In this document: piece by piece, positions 7,024 to 57,002 of the stretch
Layout: each line of letters opens with the position of its first letter
Position numbering within the stretch: position 1 is the first letter of the stretch
From: an uncultured Prevotellaceae bacterium
GTDB taxonomy: Bacteria; Bacteroidota; Bacteroidia; Bacteroidales; Muribaculaceae
Length of the DNA: 64,000 bases
Assembly: GCA_900318645.1 (NCBI GenBank)
Contig: ONLH01000014.1
Span: forward strand, 17,064-81,063
Reading direction: 5' to 3'
Notes under the pieces: model-generated
What the model was told of the DNA's origin: nothing
The model's database searches: none
The model's input: only the letters and a program-made list of their open reading frames with translations
Position numbers and translations under genes: made by a program

Positions 7024-8382
7024 TTAATAACCTCCTGTGTCGCCACCAGCTGTTCCTCCGCCCGAGGTGCCACTTGCACCCTTCTTGTAACGCAAGATGG
7101 TGATGTCTCCACGTTTCTTGTATTTAATGCCGTCACTGCCCAAAGCCGTTACCACATAATAATATACACCGGTATCGACCAGCCTTCCGTGATAGGTGCC
7201 ATCCCAGCCGCTGCCGGGATCAGTGAATTCACATATCAGAGTTCCCCAGCGGTTAAAGATCCAGCAGTGGAACTCGATAAGCGACTTGTAGGAGACTTTC
7301 CAAATATCGTTCACGCCCTCGGTGGAACCTGGCGAGAAAATGTTGGGGCATACCAACTCACTCTCGCTCACGGTGATGGTGTAGACATCGCCATAGCTTT
7401 CGCACGAGCCATCGGCATTGGCGACCATATAGCGCATATAGTAAGTTCCCGCTTCATTGAAGGTATAGTCCACCTCGTCCTGGTTGTATTGCAGGATGAC
7501 ATTCTCAAATTCCTGGTCCTTGGCCATTTCCCAGACACGATAGACCACCGCATCGGTGGGATAGCCAGTGAATATGATATGAACCGGTGCCGAGCCGCCC
7601 AGACCACTCTCAAGGCCTTTCTCGTTATTGTTGCCGCGGTCCTCTTGCTCAGCAGTGGTGCCACAGCCCACGGCCTGGGTGTAGAAGTACTCACCCTCAA
7701 TACCCTGGCCTATGCCCCACTCTTCCAGAAAACGGTCACCTGTGAGCATGAATGCCGTGTTACACAGCGGCGGCAAGATTTCAACGGCCTGATCCAGTGC
7801 AGCGAAGGTCTCAACGACTTCCTTCTCCTGCCAGTGGGTCGAGTCATCCCACACCAGCGTGTTATAAGTCAGTTTGATTTCACGGTCAAGCACCTGACGG
7901 TTGCCGTGGATGGTATAGTAAGGAATGGCATCTGCCTGACCATCAACATTGAACGCAATCAAGTTGCAGGGCGTCTCACTGCCATAGGACATATCGTTGA
8001 GCTCCAGGAAATAGTCGGCATAATTGACCACCCAGAAATAGAAGGGAGATCCTGTACCCTCCTGAATCTTGTAACCCTTATTGGGGATTACCTGCAATAA
8101 TGAAGTCGTATATCCATTCCACATCGTGGGAACCGTATCGGGATTACCCCAATTATGCGCATCATAGCTTGTCACTGTCGCACGCTCACCAGTTGACGAA
8201 GTGTAAGTCATCCCTACCCCGTTGGTATCATACACGACATATATCTTATGCAAACCGGTCATTGCAAGATCGGGGGTCACCTCGATAACGGGATACTCTC
8301 CCACACCGGTAAACGTCAATTGACCGCTCGCCGACAACAAAGTCAGCGCGGCCGCCATGAGCGAAATCAATTTCTTGTTCAT
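7024..8382 (-). CDS. Secreted protein with gliding-motility-associated (CHU_C, T9SS type B) C-terminal domain
   Basis: Signal peptide; C-terminal CPNIFSPG...NDIWKV...IFNRWG...GWDGTYHGRLVDTGVYYYVV. Confidence 0.85.
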   Translation of the reverse strand: MNKKLISLMAAALTLLSASGQLTFTGVGEYPVIEVTPDLAMTGLHKIYVVYDTNGVGMTYTSSTGERATVTSYDAHNWGNPDTVPTMWNGYTTSLLQVIPNKGYKIQEGTGSPFYFWVVNYADYFLELNDMSYGSETPCNLIAFNVDGQADAIPYYTIHGNRQVLDREIKLTYNTLVWDDSTHWQEKEVVETFAALDQAVEILPPLCNTAFMLTGDRFLEEWGIGQGIEGEYFYTQAVGCGTTAEQEDRGNNNEKGLESGLGGSAPVHIIFTGYPTDAVVYRVWEMAKDQEFENVILQYNQDEVDYTFNEAGTYYMRYMVANADGSCESYGDVYTITVSESELVCPNIFSPGSTEGVNDIWKVSYKSLIEFHCWIFNRWGTLICEFTDPGSGWDGTYHGRLVDTGVYYYVVTALGSDGIKYKKRGDITILRYKKGASGTSGGGTAGGDTGGY

Positions 8383-8473
8383 AGTGCTCACTTGATTTTT
8401 CTCTATTTATATATATAACGTGAATGTGCCTCGGTTATTGCCACAGTCACGGGTTTTACCACCGAGCAAATCC

Positions 8474-8544
8474 CGAAAACATGCGTTTATCGTGCCACGA
8501 AAGGGGTAAAAGTGCTGTTCGCGGACGAATAAAACCACTTTTTT
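8474..8544. repeat. Palindromic ~70-bp repeat, copy 1, 14 bp beyond the ATPase stop codon
   Basis: cgaaaacatgcgtttatcgtgccacgaaaggggtaaaagtgctgttcgcggacgaataaaaccactttttt, near-identical to copies at 10002-10305. Confidence 0.92.
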
Positions 8545-8558
8545 GATACTGAAAACAC

Positions 8559-9998
8559 TTAATTGAATAAATCATCAAGCACAACAATCTGCTGAAAATC
8601 ACCAAAATACTCATTATAAACGAGTCCAAAAGTTGTTATCAAGGTCATGTGGACAGTAACTCGCTTGGGCAACCGCTCTTGCAGCAATGACAAACGATTA
8701 CGCAAAATGCGGTCGTATGCCTTATCAACTGCATAATCATTCTTGTAGAACTTCATCTCACACAAGTTTACCACGTTATCCGTCCGCTGAATCAGCAAAT
8801 CAATCTGAGTACCCTCAACCTCAGCGTCTCCTCGCACAGCCCAAGACGATTGCAGAGATGAGACGCCATAGATACCAAGAGCCTTCTTGATCTGGTCAAT
8901 GTGCATCAAGCATATATCCTCAAACGCTATTCCCTGCCAACTAAGGATGGAAGGCGAAGACTGATTCTGCTGCCAGAAGCCATCAGGACGGTTTTGATTG
9001 TAAACATGTCTCAGATAGAACAAACAGAAAGGATCCACCAATTTATAATGAACATACCTCCCACTTTGGCCAAAAGGCACATACGTCTGAACGAAATCGC
9101 TGACAATCAACGCCTCAAGCATCTTAGTCAGGCCGCCGCCCTGCGTGATACCTGTTTTACGTGCAATCTCGGTGCGGGTGTAACCAGCATGGCGCTCGCT
9201 CAGGACTTTCACAATGCTTTTTACTTCCTCGGGACGCGCGAACACAGAGGCAAATAAGCGGTCAAACTCTCCACGCAAAGGAGCACCTTTAGAGAAAAAC
9301 AAACGATCCACATTCTGAACCATGCTCAAGCTCGGTTCTATGTAGCCCAAATAATAGGGCACGCCACCCAAGACCATATACCCTCTCGTAATTTCATAAC
9401 GAGATAACTTGATACCCCGACTGCGATAAAAATCCTCGCATTCACGCAAGTTGAACGGTGACAACTTGATTTCACAAGTGAGGCGTCCATACAGTCCCCC
9501 GTGATTGTTGATCAAGCGGTTTTGAATCCAAGACGAAGCTGAGCCACACACCACCAGCATGACATTATCACGATGACAGGCCCAACCGTTCCAGAATGCC
9601 TCAAGCGCAGTGATAAAACCCGATCTTGGCGTGTCCATCCAGGGCAATTCATCAAGGAAAACCAATTGTCTACCGCCGTCATCTATTGCCTTGAGATGCT
9701 GCTCAAGCATAAAAAAGGCTTCAAGCCAAGACCTAGGGCACTTGGTTTTCTTCATTCCCTGACTTGTTAATGAGAAATAGAAATTCTTCAATTGACTCAT
9801 GAGCACATTCTTCCCTGTACCACTGTCAACCGGTGACAAGCCCGCATGCCGAAAAGTAATGCGACCCTTGAATGTCTCATCAACCAGGAAGGTTTTACCC
9901 ACTCGGCGTCGGCCATATATCGCCACAAACTGAGGCATATCGCTGTTATACAGGCGATTTAGTTCCTTTACTTCCTCTTCACGTCCTATCAGTTTCAT
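8559..9998 (-). CDS. AAA-type ATPase (archaeal ATPase/ATPase_2-like) with wHTH region and C-terminal PD-(D/E)XK nuclease-like domain
   Basis: Start MKLIGREEE (ATG 9998); Walker A GRRRVGKT, Walker B VFLDELPW, C-terminal QIDLLIQR...LCEMK. Confidence 0.85.
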   Translation of the reverse strand: MKLIGREEEVKELNRLYNSDMPQFVAIYGRRRVGKTFLVDETFKGRITFRHAGLSPVDSGTGKNVLMSQLKNFYFSLTSQGMKKTKCPRSWLEAFFMLEQHLKAIDDGGRQLVFLDELPWMDTPRSGFITALEAFWNGWACHRDNVMLVVCGSASSWIQNRLINNHGGLYGRLTCEIKLSPFNLRECEDFYRSRGIKLSRYEITRGYMVLGGVPYYLGYIEPSLSMVQNVDRLFFSKGAPLRGEFDRLFASVFARPEEVKSIVKVLSERHAGYTRTEIARKTGITQGGGLTKMLEALIVSDFVQTYVPFGQSGRYVHYKLVDPFCLFYLRHVYNQNRPDGFWQQNQSSPSILSWQGIAFEDICLMHIDQIKKALGIYGVSSLQSSWAVRGDAEVEGTQIDLLIQRTDNVVNLCEMKFYKNDYAVDKAYDRILRNRLSLLQERLPKRVTVHMTLITTFGLVYNEYFGDFQQIVVLDDLFN

Positions 9999-10001
9999 TT
10001 C

Positions 10002-10305
10002 AAAATAGCGTTTTATCGTGCCACGAAGATACAAAAAACATTGTTCGCGGACAAATAAAACCACTTTTTTAATGATTTTATTACTGTTATCAGTAGTGTC
10101 TTTGAGCCATTATTAGCCGAAAACATGCGTTTATCGTGCCACGAAAGGGGTAAAAGTGCCGTTCGCGGCACGATAAAACCACTTTTTTAATGATTTTATT
10201 ACCGCTATCGGTAGTGAATCTGAGCCATTATTGGCCAAAAACATGCGTTTATCGTGCCGCGAAAGGGGTAAAAGTACTGTTCGCGGCACGATAAAACCAC
10301 TTTTT
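10002..10305. repeat. Tandem array, 118-bp period, three copies of the palindromic repeat
   Basis: tttatcgtgcc recurs at 10012, 10130 and 10248; arms tttatcgtgcc(a/g)cgaa / ttcgcggcacgataaa; linkers are similar to each other. Confidence 0.93.
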
Positions 10306-10403
10306 GCTCCATGTCGCGGAGCCGTGATGAGCAAAAAATTGGTCCTCAACAAAAACTTTTCACTACCTTTGTGACAGATTTTCACACATTATAATATATA
10401 ACG

Positions 10404-10814
10404 ATGGAACAAAACGAGATGATGAACGGAATGCCACGCCGCGAGCGCGCGGTGATGTACAAGCGTGAACACAACTGCTGCCAGGCTGTGCTGCTGGCCT
10501 TTGCACCCGAGTTGGGGCTGCCCGAGGAGAAGCTTCTGGCGATGGGAGCCTGTTTCGGCAGCGGCATGGGTAGCATGGACGAGACCTGCGGTGCCCTGTG
10601 TGGAGCACAGATGGCACAAGGGTTGCTGAAATATGACGGCCGCCGCATGAATCCCCAAGCCAGCCAGTTGCGGGCAGAGTTTGAACAACGCTGTGGTGCC
10701 ACGCGCTGCAAGGACCTGAAGGGTGTGGGCACTGACCACGGTGTGCTGTGTTCTTGTGAGGACTGCGTGCGCCATGCCGTTGAAGCCCTTGAGGAGTTAG
10801 AAAACAGAAGTTAG
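10404..10814 (+). CDS. C_GCAxxG_C_C family putative redox-active protein
   Basis: HNCCQAV, ETCGALCGA, TRCKDL, CEDCV motifs. Confidence 0.88.
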   Translation: MEQNEMMNGMPRRERAVMYKREHNCCQAVLLAFAPELGLPEEKLLAMGACFGSGMGSMDETCGALCGAQMAQGLLKYDGRRMNPQASQLRAEFEQRCGATRCKDLKGVGTDHGVLCSCEDCVRHAVEALEELENRS

Positions 10815-10908
10815 GAGTTAAAAGTTTGGAGTTGGAAGATTACGATAAGTATTGTCGAGAAAGAAAAAAACTATACAAAAATATAGTTGATGTTTGGCGA
10901 GATTTGAG

Positions 10909-10916
10909 TAATTTTG
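10909..10916 (+). promoter_or_regulatory. Bacteroidetes sigma-A -7 promoter element (mre operon)
   Basis: TAATTTTG matches TAnnTTTG, ~70 bp upstream of the mreB ATG. Confidence 0.65.
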
Positions 10917-10983
10917 CAGTCCATTAAACGAGAGTAAATTATTAAGCATTCATAACTAACAATCTAACATACAGTTAACAATC

Positions 10984-11964
10984 ATGGGATGGTTTTCATT
11001 CACTCAAGAAATCGCTGTCGATTTAGGAACAGCCAACACCATTATCATCCATAACGACCGCATCGTCATCGACGTCGCCGTGGGTGAGCGCGCACGCGAG
11101 ATGCACGGCAAGGTCCATGAGGGCATCCGCACTGTTCGCCCCTTGAGCGACGGTGTCATCGCCGACTTCAACGCCGCCGAGCACATGATCCGCGGCATGA
11201 TCAAGAAAGTGAGCGCCAAGAACCACTGGTTCTCCCCCTCGTTGCGCATGGTAGTCTGCGTCCCCTCGGGATCGACCGAGGTCGAGATTCGTGCCGTCCG
11301 CGACTCCAGTGAGCATGCCGGTGGCCGCGACGTCTATATGATTTACGAACCGATGGCAGCCGCCTTGGGTATCGGCCTTGACGTGCTGGCTCCCGAGGGC
11401 AACATGATTGTTGACATCGGTGGTGGTACGACCGAGATCGCTGTGATTTCGCTGGGCGGTATCGTGAGCAACAAGAGTATCCGCACGGCTGGTGACGACC
11501 TCACCGAGGACATCCAGGAGCACATGCGCCGCGCCCACAACGTGCGCGTCGGTGAGCGCACGGCCGAGGCCATCAAGATCAACGTCGGCTCAGCATTGAC
11601 CGACCTGGGTCCCGATGCCCCCGAGGACTTCATCATCCATGGTCCCAACCAAGTGAACTCCCTGCCCCTTGAGGTGCCCGTGACCTACCAGGAGGTGTGC
11701 CACTGCATCGAGAAGTCCATCTCCAAGATCGAGGCTGCTGTCCTCAGCGCCCTGGAGCAGACGCCTCCCGAGCTGTATCAGGACATCGTCCACAACGGTA
11801 TCTTCCTGACCGGTGGTGGTGCCTTGCTGCGTGGTCTGGACCGTCGCTTGACCGACAAGATTGGCATCGAGTTCCACGTCGCCGAGGATCCCCTGCACGC
11901 CGTTGCCAAGGGTACTGGTATCGCATTGAAGAACATCAAGCACTTCAAGTTCCTCATGCGTTAA
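10984..11964 (+). CDS. mreB: Rod shape-determining protein MreB (apparent 14-aa in-frame deletion)
   Basis: DLGTANT, EPMAAALG, DIGGGTTE, LTGGGALL motifs; first gene of the mre/mrd cluster. Confidence 0.96.
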   Translation: MGWFSFTQEIAVDLGTANTIIIHNDRIVIDVAVGERAREMHGKVHEGIRTVRPLSDGVIADFNAAEHMIRGMIKKVSAKNHWFSPSLRMVVCVPSGSTEVEIRAVRDSSEHAGGRDVYMIYEPMAAALGIGLDVLAPEGNMIVDIGGGTTEIAVISLGGIVSNKSIRTAGDDLTEDIQEHMRRAHNVRVGERTAEAIKINVGSALTDLGPDAPEDFIIHGPNQVNSLPLEVPVTYQEVCHCIEKSISKIEAAVLSALEQTPPELYQDIVHNGIFLTGGGALLRGLDRRLTDKIGIEFHVAEDPLHAVAKGTGIALKNIKHFKFLMR

Positions 11965-18577: not shown

Positions 18578-19900
18578 TCACAACAACCCAGCGCAGTAAA
18601 CAGGGATACAATCAGTCGCTCCATCACGATAGAAGTCCTTAGTATAAACAAGAATGCGGTCGCCGACCCGCGACGAAAACTTCCTACAGAACTCGTCCAA
18701 TGACTTGTGAGCCAGATACCCCGATGATTTGACTTCTATCGGGACAATCTTATTACCCTTAGACAATAAGAAATCAATCTCGTAATTATGATTATTGCCA
18801 TCAGGGAATGTGTAATAATATAATGTATGTCCAGCAGTCTTTAACATTTGAGCCACAAGATTCTCATACACATATCCCAAGTTGGCGGCCAATTTGTCCG
18901 AAAGCAATTTATCATAAATGACATTCTCGGTATATTTCTTGTCCCAAAATGCGAGTGTAACAAACAATCCTGTATCACCAAGGAATATTTTATAGTAATC
19001 TATATTTCGACTCAACCCAAAGCCCACATTGGGATCATTAGCATGATAAGCCACCGAAATGACCATACTATCTTCCATATCAGCAATAATGGAGTTTACA
19101 TCATAGTTCTTACGGTCTAAAGCTGTGGAAATTTTATACCTTGAAGCATTCTTTGCCAACTGACCAGGAATACTGAAAAACAATCTTGATGCTCTTCCTG
19201 TAGTGTCAATCTTCCTGAAATCATCGTCATAAAGCTGAATGATTTCACGCTTTATCGCGTCCACATGCTGCATATTGTTGCTTTTGATGTAAGCATTGAC
19301 CGCCTGGGGCATTCCTCCCACAAGCATATATAGCCTCAAATCACGCATCTGTTGACGATGCGCTTGTCCAAGCGGTATCTTTTTATCCCAGAATTTTCTC
19401 AAAACGGAATAACCCAACCCATTTCCTGTCGCCCACATGAACTCCTCATAGTCAAGTGGAAAAAGCGTCATCCGAGTTTCTTCACTGGGTATTAATATGC
19501 TCTGCACATTTTTTTTCAAAGTCAACAGCGAACCCGTTTCTATGTAGTCATATCTGCCATCTTTCACAAGATGTTTAATAGCTTGGCGTGCCAATGGTTG
19601 CAACTGCACCTCATCAAAGACAATGACACTTTGACGCTCATACAAAGTAGTGTGGGTTTCTTGTTGTAGTCTAAGGAAAAAGAAATCCAGATTACTCATA
19701 TCGTCAAACAAGGCATTGAGTTGCTTGCTGACATGAGAGAAATCTATCAGGATATAAGACTTATATTCACGTTTGGCAAAATCCTCAACAAGTGTTGATT
19801 TACCCACACGTCGAGCACCCTTAATCAGTAAAGCCGTTTTGCCCTGGCGTTCCTGTTTCCAACGGAACATCTCATCATATAATTTTCGCTTAAAAATCAT
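18578..19900 (-). CDS. AAA_14 + DUF4143-type ATPase with C-terminal PD-(D/E)XK-like motif
   Basis: Start MIFKRK (ATG 19900); GARRVGKS, VFDEVQ, IETGS, YMLVGGMP, C-terminal YEIDFLL...PIEVKS. Confidence 0.87.
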   Translation of the reverse strand: MIFKRKLYDEMFRWKQERQGKTALLIKGARRVGKSTLVEDFAKREYKSYILIDFSHVSKQLNALFDDMSNLDFFFLRLQQETHTTLYERQSVIVFDEVQLQPLARQAIKHLVKDGRYDYIETGSLLTLKKNVQSILIPSEETRMTLFPLDYEEFMWATGNGLGYSVLRKFWDKKIPLGQAHRQQMRDLRLYMLVGGMPQAVNAYIKSNNMQHVDAIKREIIQLYDDDFRKIDTTGRASRLFFSIPGQLAKNASRYKISTALDRKNYDVNSIIADMEDSMVISVAYHANDPNVGFGLSRNIDYYKIFLGDTGLFVTLAFWDKKYTENVIYDKLLSDKLAANLGYVYENLVAQMLKTAGHTLYYYTFPDGNNHNYEIDFLLSKGNKIVPIEVKSSGYLAHKSLDEFCRKFSSRVGDRILVYTKDFYRDGATDCIPVYCAGLL

Positions 19901-19942
19901 AATCCAACATTTCTTATTGATAATCAGGTGCAAATATACAAA

Positions 19943-20065
19943 AAATGTTGTTTCCGCAAAATGTTTTTCGCCAAAATATGTCGTTTCCGCAAAATATTTT
20001 TCACCAAAATGTGTCGTTTCCGCAAAATGTTTTTCAACGAAATGTGTCGTTTCCGCAAAATGTTT
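19943..20065. repeat. 33-bp tandem repeat, ~3.7 units
   Basis: gtttccgcaaaat at 19950, 19983, 20016 and 20049; unit approximately gtcgtttccgcaaaatgtttttcgccaaaatgt. Confidence 0.92.
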
Positions 20066-20945
20066 AGTCTTCGCTGTCGGCCATGAACAGACCTACACAG
20101 ATGAAGAAATGAATGATCAGGTACCAGGTGATGAAAAGGGGATGAGGGCGGGCATCGGCACCGAGTCCCACATCGTGGATGGGCTCGATGATTGGCGGAA
20201 GGGTCTCGACTTGATAGAGCGAGTCATGGACGAGTGTAGAAGAATTTTCTACAGCATTGATATACTTGGAGTAACTTCCGTTATTATATGGAAAGATGCG
20301 TTGATAGGTGCGGCACTTCAAGTCAAACTGATAGTTAGGCACATTGTGGCGCAACTTTGTGCGGGCTTCATGATAATTGTCTTCAAGCGCATCATGGCCT
20401 TTCCACTTATTGCTATAGGAGCCTCCATCGACGTTGCCCGCCACATAAACGCCTTGGCTATTCTCAACAGGCGCCACTATATAAGCACTATAATTGTCAG
20501 TGCCGCGATGAGCACTCGCATACACATCATAGCCCCTGCAGTTATCCATCAGGGTGATGGCCTCGTCACTCATGATAAACTCGGCGTTGCCGATGTTATC
20601 GCGGGTGATGCTCTTACAGTGAAGATAGGTCGAAGTGGCATGATGAACATAGTCATTGATCCCAAACAACCCTCCAGCAATGCTCAGAGCGAAAAAAGTA
20701 TGGGCCGAAATGCGATACCTATTCTCTTCAGGTATCGAATAGAAATGTTTCCGCAACAGAAAAACCGTGGCGACAATCCAGCCCGCACCCATGTAGTATC
20801 CCCATGAAAGCCATGAGTACTTCAAGTCGGTACGGTAAACGACAATGCACAGCAACCCAAACAGAGCTACTGACAGCAGTGAACCCGCTGTGAGGAAAAA
20901 AGCGCTGCGCCACCACCGAGGCTGATTGTGCTTACTGTTTAACAC
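20064..20945 (-). CDS. Membrane protein, paralog of the non-protease part of 16993..18531
   Basis: Shared segments LSVALFGLL, W.VAT..LLR, AY..APV..S.GVY, C.T.QRI.P, P.I..P..DV.L; no rhomboid domain; GTG start. Confidence 0.75.
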   Translation of the reverse strand: MLNSKHNQPRWWRSAFFLTAGSLLSVALFGLLCIVVYRTDLKYSWLSWGYYMGAGWIVATVFLLRKHFYSIPEENRYRISAHTFFALSIAGGLFGINDYVHHATSTYLHCKSITRDNIGNAEFIMSDEAITLMDNCRGYDVYASAHRGTDNYSAYIVAPVENSQGVYVAGNVDGGSYSNKWKGHDALEDNYHEARTKLRHNVPNYQFDLKCRTYQRIFPYNNGSYSKYINAVENSSTLVHDSLYQVETLPPIIEPIHDVGLGADARPHPLFITWYLIIHFFICVGLFMADSED

Positions 20946-55485: not shown

Positions 55486-56904
55486 TCAATCTTGATATAA
55501 GTCATCCATTGTCACCACACTTTGGATCTCCTTGCACTGAGCATTCTCCTTAATGCCAAATGGTGATACCATGGTCAAATGTAAAGCCTTGGTAGTTTTG
55601 GTAGCCCTCCTGAAAAGAGTCCGTCTTTCTTCCATTTTATCCAGATAAGATTTCGTCACGCTGAATGGTTTTTCGCTATATTTCATCTCACAGAGGTTAA
55701 TAATCCTATCTTTACGCTCAATGACCAAATCAAGTTGAGCACCTACAACCTGCCATGAACCGACATTACTTAAAATGCCTCCAATACCCAACTTGCGCTT
55801 AATCTGTTCAATATGACGCAAACACACTTGTTCAAAAGCATAGCCACTCCACGCATTGTGGGATCCATCATTGAGCATGTGGCTCCAACGATGAGAATCC
55901 TGAGAGTGGTCATTTTTCACATACCGAATATAGAACAGACAATAATGGTCAATCAGTTGATACATGATATCACGTTCCTTTTTACCTACGGCGTTATACC
56001 GTCGCAAAAAATCACATTTGCACAAATTCTCCAAAATCACCGTCAGATTCCCGTTATCCTCTATCTTTAACGCTGAGATGATTTCCTGTTTGGTCATTCC
56101 CTTGACTTTTGTCGCTAACAACTCTATAATCCGTCGATATTTTGGCGAATCATTGAACAGGGATCTGAAAAGGAAATCATACTCATCACGCAGGGGGGCT
56201 GTATCAGCGAAAAACAAATCATCGACATTCTGGGCAATGCTATATTGCGGGCGCAACATGCTCAAATAGTATGGGGTGCCTCCTAAAATCATATATCCAT
56301 CCAGCATCTGTAAGCGATCATATTGGAACCCTCTACTAATCAGATATTTTTCTGTTTCGGCCAAGGTGAAAGAACTCAGTCGGATGGGACGAGTCACACG
56401 ATTATGAAGTCCACCTTTATCCCCAAGCAATTTGTTGGTCATCCAGGTTGTAGCCGAGCCACATACGATGAATTTCATATTGTTTATACCACTAGCCCAC
56501 CCATTCCAAAAGAGTTCCAGTGCACGAAGAAACTTGCTGCGTGGCGTATCCATCCAAGGCAGTTCATCCATGAAAACGACAATTCGATTTTGGCCTTGCA
56601 GCCTTTCCAAATAATGTTGCAATTGAGCAAAAGCATCAAACCAGCTATCAACCACCGGGTAATAGGCTCCAGAATATTTATTGAGTTGACGGTTAAAATT
56701 CATCAACTGTTCCCGTTTGCTCTTGTCATAGATTCCGGTCAAATAAAAGTCAAACTGATCATCAAAAAATTGTTTGACAAGAAAGGTCTTACCGATACGC
56801 CTTCTTCCATAAATAGCTATAAATTCAGATTGACTTGATGCCATATATTCACCAAGTAACTCCTGCTCCTTTACACGTCCAATAATGTTCTCCTTAGCCA
56901 TCAA
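55486..56904 (-). CDS. AAA-type ATPase with PD-(D/E)XK-like C-terminus, paralog of 8559..9998
   Basis: IIGRVKEQ, IYGRRRIGKT, VFMDELPWMDTPRS, HGGL/DKGGLHNRVT block, QLDLVIER..IINLCEMK. Confidence 0.86.
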   Translation of the reverse strand: MMAKENIIGRVKEQELLGEYMASSQSEFIAIYGRRRIGKTFLVKQFFDDQFDFYLTGIYDKSKREQLMNFNRQLNKYSGAYYPVVDSWFDAFAQLQHYLERLQGQNRIVVFMDELPWMDTPRSKFLRALELFWNGWASGINNMKFIVCGSATTWMTNKLLGDKGGLHNRVTRPIRLSSFTLAETEKYLISRGFQYDRLQMLDGYMILGGTPYYLSMLRPQYSIAQNVDDLFFADTAPLRDEYDFLFRSLFNDSPKYRRIIELLATKVKGMTKQEIISALKIEDNGNLTVILENLCKCDFLRRYNAVGKKERDIMYQLIDHYCLFYIRYVKNDHSQDSHRWSHMLNDGSHNAWSGYAFEQVCLRHIEQIKRKLGIGGILSNVGSWQVVGAQLDLVIERKDRIINLCEMKYSEKPFSVTKSYLDKMEERRTLFRRATKTTKALHLTMVSPFGIKENAQCKEIQSVVTMDDLYQD

Positions 56905-56938: not shown

Positions 56939-57002
56939 GCAAAAAAAACGAGTTATCGCCGCCTAAAAATAAAAAATAGTCGGCGATAACCCTATTTTTT
57001 GC
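56939..57002. promoter_or_regulatory. Imperfect inverted repeat beside the ATPase promoter
   Basis: gttatcgccg-N19-cggcgataac core with A/T-tract extensions; minus-strand TATTTTTG -7 element immediately adjacent. Confidence 0.65.

What the first reader, a model, noticed from the sequence alone, without database searches (positions are those of the whole stretch)
8474..10305. ATPase-nuclease gene bracketed by four copies of a palindromic repeat, with a compensatory change in the linker hairpin
Seen in sequence: one copy lies 14 bp past the stop and three copies (118-bp period) lie upstream. Each copy has 16-bp inverted arms, perfect in copy 4. The linkers carry a mini-hairpin that keeps pairing despite substitutions: tactg-ttat-cagta (10082-10095) versus taccg-ctat-cggta (10200-10213). 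Only the gene-proximal copy has a different loop, which reads TATCTTCG on the minus strand, a near-consensus -7 promoter. Inference: the repeat is a structured site (attC-like recombination site, operator or processed RNA) that makes this solitary ATPase/PD-(D/E)XK gene an excisable, amplifiable or copy-number-tuned cassette. I know of no named system with this layout.
Basis: partly seen in the sequence, partly recalled or inferred. Interest (0 to 1): 0.78.

Follow-up and report, generated by a model that had tools for sequence, protein, structure and literature searches.

The report
Private operator repeats bracketing defence-candidate ATPase
The four palindromic repeats are most likely the private DNA docking sites through which this ATPase-nuclease (an untested candidate anti-phage gene) controls its own promoter, and because they sit on both sides of the gene they have also let some strains lose the gene by recombination.

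Summary
Four copies of a 75-nt unit surround a 479-aa gene on the minus strand (8559-9998). Each unit has a 17-nt half-site, a 16-nt spacer and a 17-nt half-site. The repeat occurs nowhere else in this genome.

The gene belongs to PADLOC family PDC-S27: an Orc1/Cdc6-like AAA+ ATPase, a winged helix and a PD-(D/E)XK nuclease. It is a candidate anti-phage gene that has never been tested.

The layout is a trait of the family. Among 103 homologues from four or more phyla, 53% have such a palindrome within 150 nt upstream. The figure is 0.2% for shuffled sequence and 2.7% for control upstream regions. Geometry is fixed, half-sites differ between paralogues and change symmetrically, and the proximal site always overlaps the core promoter. 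Mismatch types and fold energies argue against an RNA hairpin.

I read the sites as private operators bound by the encoded protein. This is inferred, not shown.

New here: other species have the site empty with no repeat, whereas three metagenome contigs of this species lack the gene and keep two repeats. The first of these is an exact copy1/copy3 recombinant. The bracketing repeats therefore make the gene deletable. No recombinase or circular form was found.

The parts
8473..8547 (-). Copy 1, the downstream site. Half-sites are at 8485-8501 and 8518-8534 and the spacer is at 8502-8517. It is a hybrid and imperfect palindrome, and it ends 11 nt past the stop codon.
   Evidence: The RNA fold on the gene strand has z = -0.65, no better than shuffles.
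8559..9998 (-). PDC-S27 gene, 479 aa. Domains: AAA+ ATPase (Walker A GRRRVGKT, Walker B DELPW), lid, winged helix (about residues 256-320) and a PD-(D/E)XK-like domain (E360, D400, E414-x-K416).
   Evidence: PADLOC PDLC04984 E 1.6e-189 over the full length. Pfam ATPase_2 49 bits. AF2 model pLDDT 90.5. Foldseek top hits are 2qen, STAND proteins and ORC/Cdc6. The catalytic residues are invariant in 58 homologues.
9999..10073 (-). Copy 2, the promoter-operator copy. Half-sites are at 10011-10027 and 10044-10060. On the minus strand the -7 box TATCTTCG is at 10031-10024 and the -33 TTTG is at 10055-10052, 20 nt apart. The centre lies 37 nt from the ATG.
   Evidence: In about 20 of 21 Bacteroidota homologues the -7 box starts at +4 from the palindrome centre.
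10082..10095 (.). Linker mini-palindrome TACTG-TTAT-CAGTA, between copies 2 and 3.
10117..10191 (-). Copy 3, an auxiliary upstream site. Half-sites are at 10129-10145 and 10162-10178, with one mismatch.
   Evidence: RNA fold z = -4.6, but the copy lies upstream of the promoter.
10200..10213 (.). Linker mini-palindrome TACCG-CTAT-CGGTA, between copies 3 and 4.
10235..10309 (-). Copy 4, an auxiliary upstream site and a perfect palindrome. Half-sites are at 10247-10263 and 10280-10296. It is an extra 118-bp tandem duplication that the orthologues L074-L076 lack.
8448..10360 (.). The approximately 1.9-kb indel unit (copy 1, gene, copies 2-4). It is absent from the same CHU_C / C_GCAxxG_C_C intergenic site in other species of the genus.
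   Evidence: Loci L052, L055, L057, L063 and L056 have 220-410 nt spacers with no repeat copy.
8517..10168 (.). The interval missing from gene-less alleles of the same species (1644 bp: the gene, copy 2 and one linker). The crossover maps to the shared GTTCGCGG, at 8517-8524 in copy 1 and 10161-10168 in copy 3.
   Evidence: contigs L154, L155, L165.

Best explanation
The repeats are double-stranded DNA recognition sites (operators) that are private to this gene.

The gene encodes a PDC-S27 protein: an Orc1/Cdc6-like AAA+ ATPase, a winged helix and a C-terminal PD-(D/E)XK nuclease domain. I infer that the protein binds, as a dimer or higher oligomer, to two 17-nt half-sites (here TTTTATCGTGCCGCGAA) separated by a 16-nt spacer with a central A-tract.

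In the gene-proximal copy, the -33 box lies in the left half-site and the last four bases of the -7 box are the first four bases of the right half-site. An occupied site would therefore exclude RNA polymerase, giving autorepression. The copies 118 and 236 bp upstream and the copy just past the stop would be auxiliary sites. They could allow cooperative or looped assembly and could block read-through from neighbouring genes.

Because the sites are direct repeats on both sides of the gene, they are also substrates for recombination. In part of the natural population the gene has been deleted by a copy1 x copy3 crossover, leaving a two-repeat scar.

Shown here: the anatomy, the family-wide conservation of geometry and promoter register, the symmetric covariation of half-sites, the fold, and the three allele states.

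Inferred: that the binder is the encoded protein, that the effect is repression, and that the deletion used ordinary homologous recombination.
For: (1) Family trait. A palindrome (score >=12, loop 8-26) lies within 150 nt upstream in 55 of 103 homologues. The rate is 1 of 515 in dinucleotide shuffles and 16 of 600 in real upstream regions of this genome.

(2) Fixed 17-16-17 geometry. Complementarity is high at distances 9-25 from the centre and low inside and outside that range. When centres are chosen on the outer 9 positions only, the inner 8 are >=6/8 complementary in 56 of 85 flank hits, against 1 of 32 gene-body hits.

(3) Symmetric covariation at positions not used for selection. At d=14 the pairs are G-C 30, T-A 22, C-G 13. 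At d=16 they are T-A 42, G-C 17. At d=12 they are T-A 22, C-G 15.

(4) Privacy. The four paralogues in this genome have four different site sequences.

(5) Promoter register is kept across promoter types. In about 20 of 21 Bacteroidota proximal elements the -7 box starts at +4 from the centre. In Firmicutes and Succinivibrio homologues TATAAT lies at -24 and TTGAC at -47.

(6) The spacing of 117-118 bp and the 37-38 nt from centre to ATG are kept in orthologues, while linkers are only 69-79% identical.

(7) DNA rather than RNA. Arm mismatches are G/T 47, A/C 41 and other 150. The transcribed copy 1 folds at z = -0.65, while the untranscribed copies 3 and 4 fold best.

(8) The protein has a confident winged helix between the ATPase and the nuclease, and the ATPase-WH core resembles ORC/Cdc6 and STAND proteins.

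(9) Across at least 20 contigs of the population, the half-sites barely vary while two spacer positions do.
Against: There is no binding or expression data.

The protein-DNA covariation test was inconclusive. All domains track half-site divergence equally (Spearman 0.41-0.44), apart from the short hypervariable linker (0.14), and the partial correlation for the winged helix is only slightly higher, 0.20 against 0.15.

The spacer of the non-promoter copies carries a conserved asymmetric motif (RGGGTAAAARTGC) across phyla, and its orientation flips. A simple operator model does not explain this.

31 of 104 loci show no strict palindrome within 400 nt.

Symmetric covariation is also what a hairpin or cruciform would show.
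Confidence: 0.6

Rival explanations
1. The sites are the working substrate or assembly platform of the ATPase-nuclease, not merely an operator. The protein would oligomerise on or between cognate sites, like Orc1 on ORB elements or a two-site NTP-dependent nuclease. It would be stored or licensed there, or would cut there. Autoregulation would be a by-product.
For: The nuclease and Walker motifs are invariant, so the protein is probably an active ATP-dependent nuclease. Sites bracket the gene in about 20% of loci and occur in arrays of 2-4 at subfamily-specific spacings of 53, 83 or 118 bp. The ATPase-WH core has an ORC/Cdc6-like fold. The spacer motif is conserved beyond the half-sites. The deletion junction maps inside a site.
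Against: The fixed overlap with the core promoter in every lineage is most simply explained by regulation. Most loci (46 of 104) have a single site. No cleavage data exist. The occupied allele is stable in at least 20 contigs.
Confidence: 0.15
2. The repeats are dedicated recombination sites (attC-like or cassette ends) that allow programmed excision and re-integration of the gene as a mobile cassette.
For: Gene-less alleles are exact copy1/copy3 recombinants. The number of upstream copies varies between orthologues, 2 against 3. The family is spread across phyla at 50-60% identity. An orphan site of another subfamily lies in L036.
Against: No recombinase gene lies next to the module. Empty sites in other species carry no repeat. 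All four orthologues and more than 20 population contigs sit at one and the same site. There is no attC-type GTTRRRY core, as read from the sequence. Only about 20% of family loci have a downstream copy. The proximal copy is built into the promoter. 75-nt direct repeats at 92% identity are sufficient for RecA-type recombination or replication slippage.
Confidence: 0.1
3. The palindromes act as RNA hairpins: a terminator, a processing site, or a 5'/3'-UTR regulator.
For: Copies 2-4 fold well as RNA, with z from -4.0 to -5.8. Arms covary. Copy 1 lies in the 3' UTR.
Against: The predicted promoter lies inside copy 2, so the mRNA lacks the left arm. Copies 3 and 4 are upstream of the promoter. Copy 1, the transcribed one, has z = -0.65. 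There is no G-U bias among mismatches. No terminator-like site was called at any copy. There is no Rfam match.
Confidence: 0.07
4. The copies are non-functional leftovers: tandem duplication of a promoter region plus a chance downstream copy.
For: Copy 4 is a recent 118-bp tandem duplicate that orthologues lack.
Against: The same architecture appears in four or more phyla with different sequences. Spacing and half-sites are conserved in orthologues and in the population. Enrichment over controls is very strong.
Confidence: 0.03

Closest known systems
PADLOC phage-defence candidate PDC-S27 (Pfam ATPase_2 PF01637 + DUF234; COG1672)
   Same: There is a full-length HMM match (E 1.6e-189). The protein is an ATPase fused to a PD-(D/E)XK domain, as the family is described in PMC12988326. 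The family is abundant in rumen Bacteroidales (PMC13356809).
   Different: The literature treats it as a bare single gene of unknown mechanism, and defence has not been validated. The papers I could search do not mention flanking palindromes, a promoter overlap or gene-less recombinant alleles.
Orc1/Cdc6 with ORB elements at archaeal origins next to the orc1 gene (own knowledge; fold match)
   Same: An AAA+ domain, lid and winged-helix core. Repeated, partly inverted recognition elements lie next to the protein's own gene. Binding is probably cooperative and ATP-dependent.
   Different: There is a C-terminal nuclease domain. The sites overlap the gene's own promoter. There is no evidence of origin function. 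Many paralogues occur per genome, each with its own site.
Controller (C) proteins and C-boxes of restriction-modification systems, and autorepressed toxin-antitoxin operators (own knowledge)
   Same: A potentially toxic nuclease gene is kept in check by a palindromic operator over its own promoter. The operator travels with the gene on horizontal transfer.
   Different: Here regulator and effector would be one polypeptide with an ATPase. The sites are 50 bp long with a 16-nt spacer. They occur in arrays and on both sides of the gene.
Integron attC sites and gene cassettes
   Same: Imperfect palindromes flank a promoter-proximal single gene. There is presence/absence polymorphism by recombination at the repeats.
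   Different: There is no integrase, no R/L box consensus and no cassette array. The empty ancestral site has no repeat. The scar keeps two copies. The sites are specific to each paralogue.
REP/BIME elements and MITEs
   Same: Short palindromic repeats in intergenic DNA, sometimes in tandem.
   Different: They are not dispersed. All four copies in the genome are at this one locus.

Membership tests
PDC-S27 (PADLOC candidate defence gene) | Full-length match to the PADLOC PDC-S27 HMM | tested here: met
   PDLC04984, E 1.6e-189, residues 2-478 against profile positions 3-473 of 474.
PDC-S27 (PADLOC candidate defence gene) | N-terminal ATPase_2-type P-loop ATPase with intact Walker A and B | tested here: met
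   Pfam PF01637 scores 49 bits against a cut-off of 33.2. G29, G34, K35, T36 and D116, E117 are invariant in 58 homologues.
PDC-S27 (PADLOC candidate defence gene) | C-terminal DUF234 / PD-(D/E)XK domain | tested here: inconclusive
   The C-terminal 149 aa gave no Pfam DUF234 hit even at E<=10. However, the protein is 40% identical over its full length to the window paralogue, which does hit DUF234 at 25.5 bits against 22.5. E360, D400 and E414-x-K416 are invariant, and the model shows an alpha-beta-beta-beta-alpha-beta core.
PDC-S27 (PADLOC candidate defence gene) | Protection against phage | not testable with these tools
   The family is reported as not yet validated (PMC12988326).
Autoregulatory operator | A symmetric site overlapping the core promoter of the regulator's own gene | tested here: met
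   Copy 2 has its -33 box in the left half-site and its -7 box fused to the right half-site. The register is conserved in about 20 of 21 Bacteroidota homologues, and a different register is conserved in Firmicutes homologues.
Autoregulatory operator | Specific binding by the encoded protein and an effect on transcription | not testable with these tools
   This needs EMSA, footprinting or reporter assays. The covariation test was inconclusive.
Integron cassette / attC | A tyrosine integrase nearby and an attC core (R'' ... R' GTTRRRY) | tested here: not met
   The neighbours are CHU_C, C_GCAxxG_C_C, MreB, MreC and SLT genes. The arm ends read GTTTTAT / ATAAAAC, not GTTRRRY.
Integron cassette / attC | An empty site that retains a single recombination site | tested here: not met
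   Empty sites in other species have no copy. Gene-less alleles of this species keep two copies.
REP / MITE | Many dispersed copies in the genome | tested here: not met
   blastn-short and the genome search found copies only at this locus. Only one of 60 related genomes has the repeat, at the orthologous locus.
Intrinsic terminator / structured RNA | A stable hairpin in the transcript, a U-tract, or an Rfam family match | tested here: not met
   No Rfam hit at E<=1. No terminator call at any copy. The copy 1 fold has z = -0.65. There is no wobble bias.
Orc1/Cdc6-like initiator with ORB sites | AAA+ domain plus winged-helix fold | tested here: met
   Foldseek matches include 2qen at 1.8e-13, A. 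pernix ORC2 1w5t at 5.9e-9 and Cdc6 1fnn at 1.6e-7.
Orc1/Cdc6-like initiator with ORB sites | The sites mark a replication origin | not tested
   No skew or origin analysis was done. Several such loci per genome make this unlikely.

The most novel reading that the evidence does not exclude
PDC-S27 proteins may be sequence-programmed, Orc1/Cdc6-like ATPase-nucleases whose native DNA target is the private palindrome array around their own gene. The oligomer would assemble on or between cognate sites. It would both shut off its own promoter and be held or licensed there. It might also be able to cut at the sites. The module would then be a self-contained unit that can delete or re-insert itself, which would explain the presence/absence polymorphism and the spread across phyla. 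The nuclease could also be released when the sites are perturbed during infection.
Probability: 0.12. Interest if true: 0.85.

Novelty: new variant of a known kind. Interest (0 to 1): 0.6.

Why it matters
PDC-S27 and its sister family PDC-S01 are among the most abundant 'defence candidates' in bacteria, archaea and the rumen (PMC12988326, PMC13356809). No mechanism, ligand or phenotype is known for either.

A conserved, paralogue-specific 50-bp site at the gene's own promoter gives a concrete DNA target. That target can be used directly in EMSA, footprinting, DAP-seq, reporter assays and nuclease assays.

It also explains how a potentially toxic nuclease gene can move between phyla: it carries its own control region.

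The three allele states found here are a no-repeat site, an occupied site and a two-repeat scar. They show how the bracketing sites create rapid presence/absence polymorphism of a defence-type gene inside one species. They also give a sequence signature, orphan palindromes, for detecting past losses.

Tried and rejected
- Rfam scan of 8000-11000 at E<=1: nothing.
- NCBIfam: no family for any of the three ATPases.
- PDB search by sequence: no hit.
- Genome-wide dispersal (REP/MITE): rejected, because the repeat is unique to the locus.
- Target-site duplication: the 27-nt direct repeat at 8394-8420 and 10377-10403 is not one. Both copies are the 5' regions of the neighbouring genes and are present at empty sites too.
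- Protein-DNA specificity covariation by mutual information and partial Mantel-type correlation: the top positions, 293 in the recognition helix and 311 in the wing, are suggestive. But all domains except the short linker correlate about equally, so the test is inconclusive.
- Assembly artefact as an explanation of the gene-less allele: considered. In all occupied contigs, copies 1 and 3 share only the 8-nt GTTCGCGG between the copy-1-specific and copy-3-specific bases at the junction. Three contigs from at least two studies and different assemblers agree. An artefact is therefore unlikely, but it cannot be excluded without reads.
There was therefore no read-level test for circles, junction frequency, transcription start sites or small RNAs.
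- Literature searches for DUF234, PDC-S27, DUF4143 with Bacteroides, PF01637 with winged helix, and COG1672 found no description of these sites.
Full report
**The observation**

The window holds four copies of a 75-nt unit at 8473-8547, 9999-10073, 10117-10191 and 10235-10309. Start-to-start spacings are 1526, 118 and 118. They surround a 479-codon ORF on the minus strand, with its stop at 8559-8561 and its ATG at 9998-9996.

Each unit contains a 17-nt half-site, a 16-nt spacer and an inverted 17-nt half-site. Copy 4 is a perfect 16/16 palindrome and copy 3 has one mismatch. Copies 1 and 2 are hybrids: one half-site reads TTTATCGTGCC..., the other TTATT(T/C)GTCC... They therefore pair poorly.

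A 15-nt arm pattern matches 6 times where 0.22 is expected. The repeat is unique to this locus in the 3.6-Mb genome.

A TTTG lies 20 nt upstream of that box, which gives a Bacteroidota-type -33/-7 promoter. The promoter consensus is from my own knowledge.

**The gene**

- Pfam gives ATPase_2.
- PADLOC gives a full-length match to PDC-S27, E 1.6e-189.
- An AlphaFold model built on 58 homologues has pLDDT 90.5. It shows an AAA+ domain, a lid, a winged helix (helices 256-299 and a beta-hairpin wing at 303-320) and an alpha/beta domain.
- That last domain carries E360, D400 and E414-x-K416, all invariant, which is the PD-(D/E)XK pattern.
- Foldseek finds the P. abyssi ATPase_2 protein 2qen first, followed by STAND proteins (NRC, Apaf-1, MalT, Avs3) and ORC/Cdc6.

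The literature describes PDC-S27 as a very abundant ATPase-PD-(D/E)XK defence candidate that has not been validated (PMC12988326, PMC13356809). I found no mention of flanking sites.

**The layout is a family trait**

The genus holds 0-14 paralogues per genome. I oriented 30 of these loci and 75 more from a scan of 185,579 species genomes. The second set includes Lachnospiraceae, other Clostridia, Spirochaetes, Succinivibrionaceae and Coriobacteriia at 49-64% identity.

Nearly every subfamily has its own palindrome. A gap-free palindrome with score >=12 and loop 8-26 lies within 150 nt upstream in 55 of 103 loci. The rate is 1 of 515 in dinucleotide shuffles and 16 of 600 in real upstream regions of this genome.

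When elements are aligned on their centres, complementarity is high only at distances 9-25 and the central bases are A/T-rich. To limit selection bias, I picked centres using only the outer nine positions. The inner eight were then >=6/8 complementary in 56 of 85 flank hits, against 1 of 32 gene-body hits. Those unselected positions show several pair types with symmetry kept: at d=14, G-C 30, T-A 22 and C-G 13; at d=16, T-A 42 and G-C 17.

The consensus half-site is TTATAtTTTtCgGyGAA. The window's TTTTATCGTGCCGCGAA is a divergent version of it. The four paralogues of this genome have four different sites.

**DNA site or RNA hairpin**

- In about 20 of 21 Bacteroidota proximal elements, the -7 box TAnnTT(T/C)G starts at +4 from the palindrome centre. 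Its last four bases are then the start of the right half-site.
- In Firmicutes and Succinivibrio homologues, TATAAT sits at -24 inside the left half-site, with TTGAC at -47.

In both arrangements the site covers the core promoter, and transcription must start inside the palindrome. The mRNA therefore cannot contain the whole hairpin.

Mismatches in the arms show no wobble bias: G/T 47, A/C 41, other 150. In this locus the only copy that is surely transcribed, copy 1, folds no better than shuffles (z = -0.65). The best hairpins, copies 3 and 4 (z = -4.6 and -5.8), lie upstream of the promoter. No terminator-like site and no Rfam family matches.

I conclude that this is a double-stranded DNA site. 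The sites differ between paralogues within one cell, and the only gene common to all loci is the ATPase gene. Its own winged helix is therefore the most likely reader. A direct covariation test was inconclusive.

**Orthologues**

Three orthologues at 87-92% identity (L074 = G002, L075, L076) sit at the same place, next to the C_GCAxxG_C_C-mreB genes. Each has two upstream copies and one downstream copy. Copy 4 of the window is therefore an extra 118-bp tandem duplication.

The upstream copies stay 117-118 bp apart and the proximal centre stays 37-38 nt from the ATG, although the linkers are only 69-79% identical. In L074 the distal copy has its spacer inverted.

**Three allele states**

1. In five other species of the genus, the CHU_C gene and the C_GCAxxG_C_C gene are direct neighbours, 220-410 nt apart, and no repeat is present. 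Conserved flanks stop near 8447 and resume near 10361. The repeats therefore arrived with the gene.

2. The exact protein is found on at least 21 contigs from several samples. All five places shown have three upstream copies and one downstream copy.

3. Three metagenome contigs (L154, L155, L165) come from at least two studies. They are 97-98% identical to the window in the flanks and 98.2-98.5% identical to occupied contigs. They lack the gene and hold two copies 118 bp apart, with the same outer junctions.

In the third state, the first copy carries the left flank, left arm and GTGCTG spacer of copy 1. These are followed by the CGGCACGATAA arm and the linker of copy 3. This is the product of a copy1 x copy3 crossover within the shared GTTCGCGG, which removes 1644 bp.

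Several points argue against a dedicated cassette system:

- There is no recombinase gene nearby.
- There is no attC core.
- All occupied copies sit at a single site.
- Downstream copies occur in only about 20% of family loci.
- 75-nt direct repeats suffice for ordinary recombination.

**The mini-palindrome in the linker**

Across the population it has two stem states, TACTG/CAGTA in linker 2-3 and TACCG/CGGTA in linker 3-4. One gene-less contig has a mixed, unpaired state. This amounts to one compensatory event. By my rough estimate, the chance that the partner base changed to match is about 0.05.

L075 has a perfect TATCGATATCGATA at the same place, L076 is degenerate and L074 has a shifted CTATT/AATAG. 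The bases next to the mini-palindrome vary more than it does. It may be constrained, but I cannot say what it does.

**Unexplained**

The non-promoter copies in several phyla share an asymmetric spacer motif, RGGGTAAAARTGC. Its orientation relative to the gene flips, even between copies of one locus. A central A-tract could aid bending, but the conserved G-run and TGC suggest an additional contact.

**Earlier notes of this scan**

After I had reached this reading, a look-up showed that other agents had reported private operator arrays for PDC-S27 and PDC-S01 genes in other genomes. These notes are unchecked AI notes and I do not count them as support. My tests here agree with them. On one point they add to a note and partly contradict it: that note stated the flanking repeats are not scars that allow the gene to be cut out.

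**Verdict**

The best explanation is a private autoregulatory operator array of a PDC-S27 ATPase-nuclease, whose bracketing copies have also mediated natural gene loss. My confidence is 0.6. The main uncertainty is the untested protein-DNA interaction.

Noticed in passing
window 18580-19900 (-) and 19940-20066: A second ATPase-nuclease of another family lies here: AAA_14 + DUF4143 by Pfam, and PADLOC PDC-S01 at E 1.5e-90. It is preceded by four tandem 33-nt direct repeats (CATTTTGCGGAAACGACACATTT...) that run into a TATATTTG -7 box.
   Followed up: partly
window 55495-56901 (-) and about 56952-56990: A second PDC-S27 paralogue, 40% identical, has its own different palindrome GTTATCGCCG-N20-CGGCGATAAC just upstream of a TATTTTTG -7 box.
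   Followed up: partly
G000 contig C38:15905-17305 (-): This paralogue has a two-copy site module, one 'TTTTTACCCC'-spacer copy plus one promoter-type copy. The module is present both upstream and, almost identically, downstream of the gene. That is the same kind of bracketing that allowed deletion at the studied locus.
   Followed up: no
L036 about 1210-1260 (G016:C9): An orphan palindrome has the arms of a different subfamily (TTTTATTTTTCTGGAA) and a GAGGGTAAAATGGG spacer. It lies in a 730-nt gap between an ORF I read as AbiEi-like (not checked against a family library) and an unrelated PDC-S27 paralogue. It may be the scar of a lost gene.
   Followed up: partly
L074-L153: Homologues at 49-64% identity occur in Bacteroidales, Lachnospiraceae, other Clostridia, Spirochaetes, Succinivibrionaceae, Coriobacteriia and Flexilinea. 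Nearly all are from rumen or gut samples. This points to transfer across phyla within one habitat, with the operator re-fitted to each promoter type.
   Followed up: partly
window 11074/11075 (mreB, 10984-11964): The window's mreB ORF is 326 aa, whereas relatives and population contigs encode 340 aa. L154 and L155 each carry 42 nt that the window lacks at this point, an in-frame loss of 14 codons. This is either a real deletion or an assembly error in this genome.
   Followed up: no
non-promoter copies in many loci (window 8502-8517, 10146-10161, 10264-10279): The spacer motif RGGGTAAAARTGC is conserved across phyla while the arms differ. Its orientation flips between copies and between orthologues. 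This is unexplained.
   Followed up: partly
L056 about 1200-1480 (G034:C13): One empty-site relative has a different tandem repeat of about 70 nt (…GCGCAAGGTAGGCTGCGCCTCAACAATACTCAAATAAATTTGGCATT…) in the same intergenic region.
   Followed up: no
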